Under the pieces are notes generated by a model. It saw nothing but the letters and a program-made list of their open reading frames with translations, was not told where the DNA came from and ran no database searches. The position numbers and the translations under genes were made by a program. Shown piece by piece: positions 13,274 to 15,828 of a stretch of DNA of 30,710 bases. Numbering within the stretch: the first letter of the stretch is position 1; each line of letters begins with the position of its first letter. The stretch is from a virus (Duplodnaviria > Heunggongvirae > Uroviricota > Caudoviricetes): IMG/VR virus record IMGVR_UViG_2529293040_000025, positions 1 through 30,710 of that record. One strand, written 5' to 3'.

Positions 13274-13368
13274 GGTGACCGTGAGAGCACTACTGACCCC
13301 TGAAATTGCCCCGCGTATGGGGATCGTATTGTTCAGGCCAGGTTCAGAGCTGATGCCCCTGTTTATGC

Positions 13369-14918
13369 CTGTCTCTTATACACAAATCCCCACCCGGGGA
13401 TTTGTGATGTCTGTCAGTCTGCTTTAGGGGGACTCTTTCCATCCGGTAGTTTCCTTCCTCCCCGGCAGCGATTTTTTGAACTTTTTCCTCACCCGTTGAT
13501 CTTCTCTTATATTTCATTTTCTTCGGGTCTGTTATGGTACTTTCTGATTGTTATTCATGGGCTAACGAGCAGTTTGGACATGCCCGTCTCGGTGATCCGC
13601 GTCGTACACGACGCCTTGTGTCACTGGCCTCTTCTCTCGCTCAGCATGCAGGTCTTTCTATTGTGAAATCATCCCAGTCCACTGCTCAGGTTGAAGGTGC
13701 GTACCGCCTGATACGTAACCCGTCTGTGTCCCCGCAAGCCATTGCCGAAGCCGGATTTACCGCCACTGTAAGGGCATGTGAGGCTCATCCGCTGCTCCTC
13801 GCGCTGGAAGACACCACCACCATTAACTTCAGTCACAGTACGGCATCTGATGACCTGGGGAATACCACCACTAACCCGAAGACGCGCGGGCTGCTGGCTC
13901 ACTCTGTCCTGATGTACGCCCCCGACAGCGCCCTGCCAGTCGGTCTTATCGAACAGCAGCGCTGGAGTCGTGCCACGGACACCTACGGTGTTAAGCACCA
14001 GCGAAAAGAACGTCCCTATGAAGAAAAAGAAAGTTACCGCTGGCAGCAGGCTTCGGAGCGCATGGCCGAACGGCTGGGGGAGATACAGAAACGGGTAATC
14101 ACTGTCTGTGACCGGGAAGCGGATATCTGGCATTACCTGCATTATAAAGTCAGCCACGGGCAGCGCTTCGTGGTGCGTGCAGCACAGAATCGCCGGCTGG
14201 AAGAAGCACCCGGCAAGCTCTTCGAACTGCCGGAAGTCCTGGCAACCGCGGGAAGCCACACGCTGAATGTGATGCAAAAAGGCGGGCGGGCAGCCCGCCA
14301 GGCCCGGATGTTCATCAGTTACAGCGAAGTCAGCATAAAAAATCCCGACAACAGCGGCCAGGCGCTCCCGCTCACGTATGTCTGTTGCCGGGAGCAGGCA
14401 GAGGACGGCGCCTGCTGGCATCTGCTGACGTCAGAAAAAGTGGCGAGTGCCGCCGATGCGCGACGTATCGTCAGCCATTACGAGCGACGCTGGCTGATAG
14501 AGGAATACCACAAGGCGTGGAAAAGTGGTGGTACATGTGTGGAATCGCTGCGAATGCAGACCCGGGATAACCTCGAGCGCATGGTGGTTATCAAGGCGTT
14601 TATCGCGGTGCGGGTGCTGGGCCTGCGGCAGGGCGGTATCAGTGAAGAAACACAAAATGACAGCTGTGAGAAAATACTGACGCCGACAGAGTGGAAACTG
14701 CTGTGGGTTAAGCTGGAAGGAAAACCGCTTCCGTCACAGATGCCGACACTGAAATGGGCCTGTCTGAAACTGGCGAAACTGGGGCGATGGCATGACAGCA
14801 AACGCACCGGTCGCCCCGGTTGGGTAGTCATGTGGGATGGCTGGTTCAGACTTCAGGATATGGTTGAGGGTTACCTGGTGATGAAGTCTCTTGATCAGGA
14901 GATCTGATCAAGAGACAG
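13369..14918 (+). mobile_element. IS50-like insertion sequence (IS4 family), apparently intact, with target-site duplication
   Basis: Left end CTGTCTCTTATACACAAAT differs at 2 positions from the Tn5 outside end; right end is the reverse complement of CTGTCTCTTGATCAGATCT, the Tn5 inside end. Flanked by direct repeat GTTTATGC (13361-13368 and 14919-14926). Encodes a full-length transposase. Confidence 0.85.
13534..14907 (+). CDS. IS4-family (Tn5/IS50-like) DDE transposase
   Basis: Motifs shared with Tn5 transposase: GDPRRT, EGAYRLIRNP, ALEDTT, VCDREADI, RFVVR, ERRWLIEEYHKAWKSG, DNLERMV, DSKRTG. Confidence 0.9.
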   Translation: MVLSDCYSWANEQFGHARLGDPRRTRRLVSLASSLAQHAGLSIVKSSQSTAQVEGAYRLIRNPSVSPQAIAEAGFTATVRACEAHPLLLALEDTTTINFSHSTASDDLGNTTTNPKTRGLLAHSVLMYAPDSALPVGLIEQQRWSRATDTYGVKHQRKERPYEEKESYRWQQASERMAERLGEIQKRVITVCDREADIWHYLHYKVSHGQRFVVRAAQNRRLEEAPGKLFELPEVLATAGSHTLNVMQKGGRAARQARMFISYSEVSIKNPDNSGQALPLTYVCCREQAEDGACWHLLTSEKVASAADARRIVSHYERRWLIEEYHKAWKSGGTCVESLRMQTRDNLERMVVIKAFIAVRVLGLRQGGISEETQNDSCEKILTPTEWKLLWVKLEGKPLPSQMPTLKWACLKLAKLGRWHDSKRTGRPGWVVMWDGWFRLQDMVEGYLVMKSLDQEI

Positions 14919-14922
14919 GTTT

Positions 14923-15828
14923 ATGCAGGGGCGTGTCCTGCTGGAGCCAGAGCCGGAACGTTATTCATCTTTCGCCAGTGGTGCCGTTCCGGCGGCATCA
15001 CAACCGCTGGCGGATGATCCTGCCGTTCGGACCGTGTTCCGCAATGAGGCAGTGATCCGTCGTGCTGGTGGCGTGGAATGTCTTGAAAGCTGGTTACTTC
15101 GTGAAAAAGGTTGCCAGTGGCCTCATTCCGACTGGCACAGCGAGAACATGACCACAATGCGACACACGCCGGGCGCAATCCGTCTGTGCTGGCACTGCGA
15201 TAACCAGCTGCGCGATCAGTTCACGGAACGGCTGGAATCAATGGCAACGGATAACTGTACCCGCTGGGTGTTGTCTGTTGTGCGTCGGGATCTCGGTTTT
15301 GATGACAGTCACGTTGTGACAATGCCGGAACTGTGCTGGTGGCTGATTCGTAATGACCTGGCGGATGCCTTACCGGAAAGTGCAGCCCGTAAGGCACTGA
15401 GATTACCGAAGCCTGTTGTGCCGTCTGTCACCCGGGAAAGTGACCTTGTGCCTTCGGTTCCTGCCACCAGCATCATCCAGGATAAAGCGAAAAAGGTGCT
15501 GGCGCTGAAAGTGGATCCGGAGTCGCCGGAGTCTTTTATGTTACGCCCAAAACGTCGCCGCTGGGTTAATGAAAAGTACACGCGCTGGGTTAAGACACAG
15601 CCGTGTGCATGTTGTGGAAAGCCCGCTGATGATCCCCACCACCTGATAGGCCACGGTCAGTGTGGAATGGGTACAAAAGCGCATGACCTTTTTGTGTTGC
15701 CTTTGTGCAGAAAGCATCACGACGAGCTGCATGCGGATACCGTGGCATTTGAAGAGAAGTATGGCTCTCAGCTGGAGCTGATATTTCGTTTTATCGATCG
15801 TGCGCTGGCAATTGGCGTACTGGCGTAA
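14923..15828 (+). pseudogene. DUF968 family gene interrupted by the IS element (3' part; 5' fragment at about 13275-13368)
   Basis: Removing the IS and one repeat copy joins VTVRALLTPEIAPRMGIVLFRPGSELMPLFM in frame to QGRVLLEPEPER.... C-terminal Cys/His cluster (CACCGK...HH...CRKHHDELH) is typical of DUF968. The 3' part keeps an ATG supplied by the duplication. Confidence 0.7.

What the first reader, a model, noticed from the sequence alone, without database searches (positions are those of the whole stretch)
13360..14927. IS50-like element with Tn5-type ends inserted into the DUF968 gene, leaving a clean target duplication
The element has a diverged transposase (clearly homologous to Tn5 Tnp but far from identical) yet terminal repeats that are identical or nearly identical to the Tn5 inside and outside ends, and is flanked by GTTTATGC direct repeats. 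Removing it and one repeat copy restores a continuous DUF968 reading frame, so the insertion is recent and the element is probably active. The 3' gene fragment retains an ATG created by the duplication and could be expressed from the IS outward.
Basis: seen in the sequence. Interest (0 to 1): 0.55.

Follow-up and report, generated by a model that had tools for sequence, protein, structure and literature searches.

The report
ISEc13 insertion in a prophage gene
This is an intact copy of the already catalogued E. coli insertion sequence ISEc13, a distant relative of Tn5, sitting in a prophage gene; that is ordinary, but ISEc13 and its relatives choose GC-rich palindromes such as terminator hairpins as targets, unlike near-random Tn5.

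Summary
Window 13369-14918 is a 1550-bp insertion sequence with one intact 457-aa transposase gene. It is flanked by a perfect 8-bp duplication, GTTTATGC. It splits a DUF968 gene in a lambdoid prophage.

Its right end matches the Tn5/IS50 inside end at 19/19 bases. Its left end matches the outside end and the mosaic end at 17/19 each. The transposase is only 39% identical to Tn5 transposase.

The element is not new. It is 100% identical to copies that RefSeq annotates as "IS4-like element ISEc13", found full-length in 874 of 5426 complete E. coli genomes.

Deleting the element plus one repeat copy gives a sequence 300/300 identical to an uninterrupted DUF968 gene. The same insertion occurs in several draft E. 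coli assemblies, so it is lineage-shared and not unique.

Outward expression of the 3' gene fragment is untested, and no promoter-like site was found.

One further result goes beyond the finding. The insertion site is not random. Seventeen non-redundant ISEc13 targets share the symmetric consensus CCCCT-N8(9)-AGGGG, usually a hairpin-forming palindrome centred on the duplication. Relatives in marine bacteria (about 50% identical transposases) sit in the apex of terminator-like hairpins. I found no description of this in the searched literature.

The parts
13281..13368 (+). 5' fragment of the DUF968 gene (first 29 codons, GTG start); it now runs into the IS as a 50-aa fusion ORF (13275-13427)
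   Evidence: The start corresponds to the annotated start of the intact homologue in L001. ORF list. Joined translation.
13355..13360 (.). Left target arm GCCCCT, just outside the duplication; reverse complement of the right arm
   Evidence: Inverted repeat I1. Consensus of 17 ISEc13 targets. The restored target folds as a hairpin, -8.8 kcal/mol, z = -4.3.
13361..13368 (.). Left copy of the 8-bp target-site duplication GTTTATGC
13369..14918 (+). ISEc13, complete 1550-bp copy (IS4 family, IS50 subgroup)
   Evidence: 100% identity over 1550 bp to copies annotated 'IS4-like element ISEc13 family transposase'.
13369..13387 (+). Left terminal 19 bp, CTGTCTCTTATACACAAAT (outside-end type; keeps the TTATACACA DnaA-box sequence of the Tn5 outside end)
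   Evidence: 17/19 to OE and to ME. The DnaA site in the Tn5 OE is mentioned in PMC3347997; its function here is inferred.
13381..13406 (+). Perfect 11-bp-stem hairpin that overlaps the left end (CACAAATCCCC-ACCC-GGGGATTTGTG). In marine relatives the same position is a hairpin followed by a T-run.
   Evidence: Inverted repeat I13. Fold -12.4 kcal/mol, z = -5.1. Relatives listed. A role as a barrier to incoming transcription is inferred.
13534..14907 (+). Transposase gene, 457 aa, intact; DDE and YREK residues conserved; the stop codon TGA lies inside the right end at the same position as in IS50
14900..14918 (-). Right terminal 19 bp; the reverse complement CTGTCTCTTGATCAGATCT equals the Tn5 inside end, with both GATC (Dam) sites
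   Evidence: 19/19
14919..14926 (.). Right copy of the 8-bp target-site duplication GTTTATGC
14927..14932 (.). Right target arm AGGGGC
14923..15828 (+). 3' part of DUF968: a 301-aa ORF starting at the duplicated native ATG; it contains the whole Pfam DUF968 domain
   Evidence: Pfam PF06147, E = 3e-80, residues 132-298. Called as a gene in other assemblies that carry the same insertion.

Best explanation
Window 13369-14918 is an intact copy of ISEc13, an IS4-family, IS50-subgroup insertion sequence. It moved by Tn5-type cut-and-paste transposition into a DUF968 gene. That gene lies in the nin region of a lambdoid prophage, between the KilA-N gene and the Q antiterminator gene.

A transposase dimer bound the two 19-bp ends, one outside-end-like and one identical to the Tn5 inside end. 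It made staggered cuts 8 bp apart in the target, and repair produced the GTTTATGC duplication.

The site was selected, not random. The restored target GCCCCT-GTTTATGC-AGGGGC is a perfect match to the symmetric target consensus of ISEc13, CCCCT-N8-AGGGG. Each half-site is presumably read by one transposase subunit of the two-fold symmetric complex, and the cuts are centred on the dyad.

Shown here: the identity of the element, its ends, the duplication, the empty site and the target consensus. Inferred: the cut-and-paste chemistry, from homology to Tn5 and the conserved DDE/YREK residues; Dam and DnaA control, from the retained GATC and TTATACACA sequences; and how the transposase reads the arms.

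The insertion removes only the first 29-30 codons of DUF968 and lies in the same orientation as the phage operon. Downstream DUF968' and Q may therefore still be transcribed by read-through. This last point is inference and was not tested.
For: Element identity: 100% over 1550 bp to ISEc13-annotated copies, with full copies in 874 of 5426 complete E. coli genomes.

Family: NCBIfam NF033590 at 514 bits against a cut-off of 160. Tn5 transposase structures at E = 6e-84 with 39% identity and conserved catalytic motifs.

Ends: verified against a real IS50.

Duplication and empty site: 8-bp duplication, and joined flanks 300/300 identical to an intact DUF968 gene. The empty site is present in 2278 genomes.

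Target consensus: 17 non-redundant ISEc13 targets have C at -4 and -2 in 17/17, G at +4 in 17/17 and G at +2 in 16/17. Arm complementarity averages 4.7 of 6 against 1.49 in the background. CCCCT-N8-AGGGG with up to 1 mismatch occurs nowhere else in the 30.7-kb window.

Repeat hits: the same site is occupied in a prophage whose flanks are 2.6% diverged, while the IS differs at 1 of 1550 bases. Swapped flanks in L126/L127 both fit the consensus.
Against: No experiment shows that this copy transposes.

Four of the 17 targets fold poorly as hairpins (L003, L007, L120, L121). So hairpin structure itself is not always present, and only the C-run/G-run arms are constant.

Many of the sites are intergenic, so post-insertion selection for harmless sites could add to the apparent preference. 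It cannot explain the base-specific consensus, or this coding-region hit.

The shared site in CP148541.1 could be common descent with later homogenisation of the IS, and not a second independent hit.

The label 'ISEc13' rests on RefSeq annotation. ISfinder itself could not be queried.
Confidence: 0.93

Rival explanations
1. The insertion landed at random, as Tn5 nearly does, and the palindromic GCCCCT/AGGGGC arms around the duplication are coincidence or reflect only selection for harmless sites.
For: Tn5 itself has only a weak 9-bp target preference (as summarised in PMC1525189). Many ISEc13 copies lie between convergent genes, where insertions are tolerated.
Against: All 17 of 17 non-redundant targets carry the C-run/G-run arms at fixed distance from the cuts. 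The background chance of at least 5 of 6 complementary arm positions is 0.006 per site. The window site is inside a coding sequence, and it was the only such motif in about 29 kb. Relatives with 50% identical transposases show the same apex-of-palindrome placement.
Confidence: 0.04
2. The target is recognised as a DNA structure (an extruded hairpin or cruciform, or an unusually bendable palindrome) and not by base-specific reading of CCCCT/AGGGG in ordinary duplex DNA.
For: Most targets fold into stable hairpins centred on the duplication. Marine relatives hit terminator-like hairpins whose stems differ in sequence (GCCAGC, GGCTGC, CCCGGC and others), with an A-run of at least 4 in 73 of 103 left flanks and a T-run in 7 of 14 right flanks. 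Duplications of 8, 9, 10 and 12 bp all stay centred on the apex. IS1272 is a precedent for hairpin targeting (PMC4923244).
Against: For ISEc13 itself the arms are nearly invariant in sequence. Four targets with the arms have little hairpin potential. A DDE transposase must join to both strands of a duplex. Nothing here measures DNA structure.
Confidence: 0.35
3. The element is a dead, anciently inherited relic, not a recently active insertion sequence.
For: The same insertion is shared by several assemblies. One of them (L131) has a split tnp and a different left flank. Most E. coli records with a match hold only partial or more diverged copies (3446 records with a match, of which 879 have a place covering at least 80% of the element).
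Against: This copy has an intact ORF identical to the protein encoded at many different sites: 27-30 places in E2348/69-type chromosomes and 10 shown in CP148541.1. It also has perfect ends and a perfect duplication, and 100% identity to other copies. None of the 5426 complete RefSeq genomes carries this insertion, while 2278 have the empty site.
Confidence: 0.1
4. It is a laboratory or assembly artefact, such as Tn5 mutagenesis, Nextera mosaic-end adaptor carry-over or a chimeric contig.
For: The left end is 17/19 to the mosaic end used in tagmentation kits and the right end equals the Tn5 inside end.
Against: The interior is only about 46% identical to IS50 at the DNA level. It is 100% identical to a natural multi-copy E. 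coli element. The junctions carry a proper duplication, and the identical insertion is found in independent assemblies.
Confidence: 0.01

Closest known systems
ISEc13 (IS4 family, IS50 subgroup), as annotated in E. coli O127:H6 E2348/69 and many other E. coli, Shigella and Salmonella replicons
   Same: 100% nucleotide identity over the full 1550 bp. Same transposase protein (WP_000244358.1 at the identical copies), same ends, and an 8-bp duplication in most copies.
   Different: Nothing except the location. This insertion in DUF968 is absent from all 5426 complete RefSeq E. coli genomes but present in several draft assemblies.
IS50 / Tn5
   Same: Single-ORF DDE transposase with N-terminal end-binding domain, catalytic core and C-terminal dimerisation domain (the dimerisation-domain Pfam hit is 24.1 bits against a 26.7-bit cut-off). 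YREK motif present. Inside end identical at 19/19 including both Dam sites; outside end 17/19 with the DnaA-box sequence. The stop codon lies within the inside end at the same position.
   Different: 39% amino-acid identity and about 46% nucleotide identity. 1550 bp against 1534 bp. 8-bp (sometimes 9-bp) duplication against 9 bp. No Met at the position of the Tn5 inhibitor-protein start (Q in ISEc13; read from the alignments). A perfect 11-bp hairpin overlaps the left end. A strong symmetric target consensus lies outside the duplication, where Tn5 has only a weak preference within it.
IS231A (IS4 family, IS231 subgroup)
   Same: From my own knowledge (Hallet et al. 1994, cited as ref. 21 in PMC2266710): an IS4-family element with a symmetric GC-rich target preference and a proposed role for target DNA bending.
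   Different: Different subgroup, 10-12 bp duplications, CA ends (PMC2266710). Its consensus, GGG-N5-CCC as I recall it, lies within the duplicated region. I did not test this here.
IS1272 / TnSha1 (staphylococci)
   Same: Inserts into hairpin-forming inverted repeats, many of them transcription terminators, including repeated independent hits on one hairpin (PMC4923244).
   Different: Unrelated family. It inserts into the stem with partial deletion of the target and no duplication, and shows no primary-sequence preference. ISEc13 makes a staggered cut centred on the apex, duplicates 8-9 bp and has base-specific arms.

Membership tests
IS4 family, IS50 subgroup | DDE catalytic triad and Y-(2)-R-(3)-E-(6)-K motif in a single-ORF transposase | tested here: met
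   The alignment to Tn5 transposase keeps LEDTT, VCDREAD and YERRWLIEEYHKAWK. One uninterrupted 457-aa ORF. Criteria taken from PMC2266710.
IS4 family, IS50 subgroup | Curated transposase model hit above its cut-off | tested here: met
   NCBIfam NF033590 at 514.1 bits against a cut-off of 160. Pfam PF14706 at 70 bits against a cut-off of 24.
IS4 family, IS50 subgroup | Size 1350-1550 bp, 5'-CT ends, direct repeats of 8-9 bp | tested here: met
   1550 bp, ends CTGTCTC..., 8-bp duplication. Ranges from PMC2266710 Table.
ISEc13 (the named element) | Near-identity in DNA to the reference element (ISfinder treats >95% DNA identity as the same IS; from my own knowledge) | tested here: met
   100% over 1550 bp to five chromosomal copies whose transposase RefSeq labels 'IS4-like element ISEc13 family'. 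The ISfinder reference sequence itself could not be queried, so the name rests on RefSeq/PGAP annotation.
IS50 proper (Tn5 arms) | High sequence identity to IS50 and a 9-bp target duplication | tested here: not met
   39% amino-acid identity, about 46% nucleotide identity, and an 8-bp duplication. It works like IS50 but is not IS50.
Hairpin/terminator-targeting insertion sequences of the IS1272 type | Insertion into hairpin-forming inverted repeats | tested here: met
   The restored window target folds at -8.8 kcal/mol, z = -4.3. Most of 24 reconstructed targets are hairpins centred on the duplication.
Hairpin/terminator-targeting insertion sequences of the IS1272 type | Blunt insertion into the stem with partial deletion of the target and no duplication | tested here: not met
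   The window copy has a clean 8-bp duplication and a perfectly restorable empty site. IS1272 behaviour from PMC4923244.
Active (transposition-competent) element | Demonstrated movement | not testable with these tools
   Indirect evidence only: intact ORF and ends, many strain-specific sites, intact duplications.

The most novel reading that the evidence does not exclude
ISEc13 and a clade of IS50-subgroup relatives have strong target specificity. These relatives have transposases about 50% identical to ISEc13's and carry the same 23-bp left end. They occur in Vibrio, Shewanella, Neiella, Alishewanella, Aeromonas and others.

They integrate at the dyad of short GC-rich palindromes: CCCCT-N8-AGGGG for ISEc13, and intrinsic-terminator-like hairpins for the marine relatives. 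I did not find this described for any Tn5-type transposase in the literature I could search.

If correct, close relatives of the 'near-random' Tn5 enzyme carry a target-reading function located outside the duplicated bases.
Probability: 0.4. Interest if true: 0.55.

Novelty: already known. Interest (0 to 1): 0.25.

Why it matters
As submitted, the finding is a routine insertion of a catalogued insertion sequence into an accessory prophage gene. It matters mainly for annotation. The split DUF968 gene is a pseudogene made by ISEc13, and the insertion can serve as a lineage marker.

The by-product is of more interest. A natural Tn5 relative uses essentially the same end sequences as Tn5 but shows a sharp symmetric target preference. 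That offers a comparative handle on how Tn5-type transpososomes capture target DNA. It is also a possible starting point for more site-selective tagmentation or insertion tools. In addition, it would explain why ISEc13 copies recur at the same few genomic sites in unrelated strains.

Tried and rejected
1. Orientation bias. I first thought the marine relatives insert with a fixed orientation relative to the terminator, because 73 of 103 left flanks have an A-run. Fourteen right flanks showed T-runs in 7. The pattern therefore just reflects the shape of uni- and bidirectional terminators, and I withdrew the idea.

2. Duplication length tracking loop length. This was suggested by cases such as loop 4 with 8 bp, loop 3 with 9 bp, and loop 6 with 10 or 12 bp. 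The full table has exceptions: loops of 5 or 6 with 8 bp, and loop 4 with 9 bp. I claim only that the duplication is centred on the dyad.

3. Outward promoter. The sigma-70 consensus scan found nothing in 13200-15100.

4. Known RNA families in or around the element: none at E <= 1.

5. Phage records: no full copy of the element in 50,697 phage records, only a 33-bp end match.

6. Literature. 'ISEc13' appears only in passing in 10 papers. Searches for IS4/IS50 hairpin, terminator or palindrome targeting found nothing specific to the IS50 subgroup. The Tn5 target paper (PMC27961) is not held.

7. The same insertion in complete RefSeq E. coli genomes: none. It was found only through exact-protein look-up in draft assemblies.
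Full report
**1. What is there**

The region holds a 1550-bp element at 13369-14918. Its single long ORF (13534-14907, + strand, 457 aa) is a full-length homologue of Tn5 transposase.
- phmmer gives E = 6e-84 to the Tn5 transposase crystal structures, over residues 6-453.
- BLASTP identity is 39%.
- Pfam finds the N-terminal end-binding domain and the DDE domain above their cut-offs, and the Tn5 dimerisation domain just below its cut-off (24.1 against 26.7 bits).
- NCBIfam NF033590 scores 514 bits against a cut-off of 160.
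- The catalytic D, D, E and the YREK signature are in place.

**2. The ends**

The reverse complement of the right end is CTGTCTCTTGATCAGATCT, which is 19/19 to the Tn5 inside end. The left end, CTGTCTCTTATACACAAAT, is 17/19 to the outside end and 17/19 to the engineered mosaic end.

I checked the reference sequences on a real IS50 next to aph(3')-IIa in plasmid NC_009980.1. It has OE at one end, IE at the other, and is 1534 bp long. The OE and ME sequences also appear in PMC3347997.

Over the whole element, ISEc13 and IS50 are only about 46% identical in DNA. In both elements the TGA stop codon lies at the same place inside the inside end.

**3. Duplication and empty site**

GTTTATGC occurs immediately outside both ends, at 13361-13368 and 14919-14926. 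The repeat is 8 bp; a 9-bp repeat in register is not possible.
- Removing 13369-14926 gives one continuous DUF968 frame.
- A 405-nt joined-flank query finds an uninterrupted site in 2278 of 5426 complete E. coli genomes, annotated as an intact DUF968 gene next to a KilA-N gene.
- In NZ_CP016546.1 the 300 nt around the junction are 300/300 identical, and the protein is identical at 325 of 330 aligned positions, counting the stop.

**4. Identity of the element**

The element is 100% identical over 1550 bp to copies in E. coli O127:H6 E2348/69 and other strains. RefSeq labels their transposase 'IS4-like element ISEc13 family transposase'.
- Full-length copies are present in 874 of 5426 complete genomes.
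- There are up to 32 places per genome, on chromosomes and plasmids.
- Copies also occur on Shigella, Salmonella and Klebsiella plasmids.
- The IS4-family review gives 1350-1550 bp, CT ends and 8-9 bp repeats for the IS50 subgroup (PMC2266710). All are met.

So this is a known element in a known family. It is not IS50 itself.

**5. How old is the insertion, and is the element active?**

No complete RefSeq E. coli genome has this insertion. An exact-protein look-up of the 301-aa 3' fragment found it in 19 contigs.
- L132 (GCA_000249155.2) is 100% identical to window 11923-18828.
- Others are 99.7-100% identical.
- One assembly (L131) has a different left flank and a split transposase gene.

The insertion is therefore shared by a group of closely related isolates.

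In addition, CP148541.1 carries ISEc13 at the same site with the same duplication. There the flanks differ by 59 substitutions in about 2240 bp and the Q gene downstream is unrelated, while the IS differs at 1 of 1550 bases. This means either a second, independent hit on the same site, or an old insertion with later homogenisation of the IS.

Activity is supported only indirectly: an intact ORF and ends, many strain-specific locations, and intact duplications.

**6. The claim about the 3' fragment**

The ATG at 14923 is the native Met codon inside the right repeat copy, in frame with the remaining 301 codons. Those codons contain the whole DUF968 domain. Only 29-30 N-terminal codons are cut off.

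No sigma-70-like promoter was found in 13200-15100. All five terminator-like hairpins in that stretch are on the minus strand. The IS is co-oriented with the phage operon and tnp ends 11 bp before the IS end. Read-through transcription into DUF968' and Q is therefore plausible, but it is inference. The sequence AAGAG, 8 nt upstream of the ATG, is at best a weak ribosome-binding site (read from the sequence).

**7. The target site is not random**

The restored target reads GCCCCT-GTTTATGC-AGGGGC. The two arms are reverse complements. The site folds as a hairpin at -8.8 kcal/mol, z = -4.3.

I collected other ISEc13 copies from complete genomes and from CP148541.1 and rebuilt 17 non-redundant targets.
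- Thirteen have 8-bp duplications and four have 9-bp duplications.
- Just outside the duplication, the left arm is C-C-C-C-T and the right arm is A-G-G-G-G.
- C is at -4 and -2 in 17/17 targets, G at +4 in 17/17, and G at +2 in 16/17.
- On average 4.7 of 6 arm positions are complementary, against 1.49 for random positions. The background chance of at least 5 of 6 is 0.006.
- Two copies with non-matching flanks (L126, L127) turn out to have swapped partners, which indicates an inversion between IS copies. Both rebuilt targets fit the consensus.
- The motif with up to one mismatch occurs nowhere else in the 30.7-kb window. The element hit the only such site there.
- Many other copies sit between convergent genes or in evident terminators, for example GATCCCCCCGCTCGGGGGGATTTTTTT.
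- Four targets keep the arms but fold poorly. For ISEc13, then, the constant feature is the C-run/G-run pair, not the hairpin as such.

**8. Relatives**

The exact 23-mer of the left end occurs in 108 stretches of the species-representative genome collection. Most are in marine gammaproteobacteria and most lie at contig ends, as expected for multi-copy elements.
- Their transposases are about 50% identical to ISEc13's and about 40% identical to Tn5's.
- Their right ends read CTGTCTCTTGATCACAAGT.
- Of 103 unique left flanks, 73 have an A-run of at least 4. Next comes a GC-rich block at -14 to -8, an AT-rich block at -7 to -4, and G at -2.
- Seven of 14 right flanks have a T-run.
- Complete copies have duplications of 8, 8, 8, 9, 9, 10 and 12 bp, each centred on the apex of a stable hairpin.

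This clade therefore integrates into the apex of terminator-like hairpins.

All members also carry a hairpin immediately inside the left end. In the marine elements it is followed by a T-run. In ISEc13 it is a perfect 11-bp stem at 13381-13406. I infer that it blocks transcription entering from outside, and that it may replace the terminator the insertion destroys. This was not tested.

**9. Comparison with what is known**

- Tn5/IS50 has only a weak preference within its 9-bp duplication (as summarised in PMC1525189).
- The IS4-family review remarks on striking arm specificity for some IS4- and IS4Sa-subgroup elements, but says nothing of the kind for the IS50 subgroup in its text. I could not see its Figure 3.
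- IS1272 targets hairpins but deletes part of the target and makes no duplication (PMC4923244).
- Papers naming ISEc13 mention it only in lists.

I therefore found no description of this specificity. ISfinder and much of the subscription literature were out of reach, so I put the chance that it is both real and undescribed at about 0.4.

**10. Verdict**

The object is an ordinary copy of the known ISEc13 in an accessory prophage gene: novelty 'already known', interest low.

The window is a lambdoid, Stx-phage-like prophage without stx genes in this stretch.

The one point worth carrying forward is the symmetric, palindrome-centred target choice of ISEc13 and its relatives.

Noticed in passing
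window 13355-13368 + 14919-14932; loci L002-L011, L120-L129: ISEc13 target sites share a symmetric consensus CCCCT-N8(9)-AGGGG lying just outside the duplication, usually a hairpin-forming palindrome. All 17 of 17 non-redundant sites fit it.
   Followed up: yes
L012-L119 (genome-contig hits to the left-end 23-mer): IS50-subgroup relatives in Vibrio, Neiella, Shewanella, Alishewanella, Aliagarivorans, Aeromonas, Photobacterium and a Serratia MAG share the identical 23-bp left end although their transposases are only about 50% identical. They sit in the apex of terminator-like hairpins, with duplications of 8-12 bp.
   Followed up: partly
window 13381-13406: A perfect 11-bp-stem hairpin overlaps the last 7 bp of the left terminal repeat. 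In the marine relatives the equivalent hairpin is followed by a T-run, so it looks like a terminator. Its function is unknown; it may block incoming transcription or replace the destroyed terminator.
   Followed up: partly
L125 (CP148541.1 2218055-2222428): ISEc13 sits at the same DUF968 site with the same duplication in a prophage whose flanks are 2.6% diverged and whose Q gene is unrelated, while the IS differs at 1 of 1550 bases. This is either an independent hit on a hot spot or old descent with IS homogenisation.
   Followed up: partly
L008 (NZ_CP014111.1) versus L122 (CP148541.1), agp-yccJ intergenic hairpin: The same hairpin is occupied in two strains in the same orientation, with an 8-bp duplication in one and a 9-bp duplication in the other (one extra C at the left junction). 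This is either two independent events or a 1-nt indel.
   Followed up: no
L126 and L127 (CP148541.1): The flanks of two ISEc13 copies are swapped: the left flank of one pairs with the right flank of the other. This indicates a chromosomal inversion by recombination between the two copies, about 60 kb apart.
   Followed up: partly
L131 (GCA_000183005.2, ADUL01000048.1): In this assembly the same IS/DUF968 right junction is kept, but the left flank is a hypF / Fe-S protein region instead of KilA-N, and tnp is split into two ORFs. This suggests an IS-mediated rearrangement plus decay, or sequencing errors.
   Followed up: no
L048 about 6632-6804 (Vibrio sp. M260121): A 173-bp miniature element carries both the left and right IS ends, flanked by a 10-bp duplication GCCTCCGTGC. 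It looks like a MITE derived from the marine relative.
   Followed up: no
L121, L123, L126 (CP148541.1): Some ISEc13 copies carry a variant right end, AAATCTGATCAAGAGACAG (G to A in the outermost... innermost-but-one position of the 19-bp end, at element-internal position 18). This removes one of the two Dam GATC sites.
   Followed up: no
window 13534-14907, residue about 52: ISEc13 transposase has Gln where Tn5 has Met56, the start of the Tn5 inhibitor protein. The next in-frame Met is far downstream, so an Inh-type truncated regulator is probably not made.
   Followed up: no
window 14037-14454, minus strand: Five terminator-like hairpins with T-runs lie on the antisense strand inside tnp, against 1.8 +/- 1.6 in shuffles. 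There are none on the sense strand. They could stop transcription entering from the inside-end side.
   Followed up: no
window 17097-17346, 18716-18885, 8578-8766: Prophage context: tRNA-Met(CAT), tRNA-Arg(TCG) and tRNA-Arg(TCT) lie just downstream of Q, as in Stx phages, but no stx genes follow. Rfam hits are STnc100 sRNA, isrK and C4 antisense RNA.
   Followed up: no
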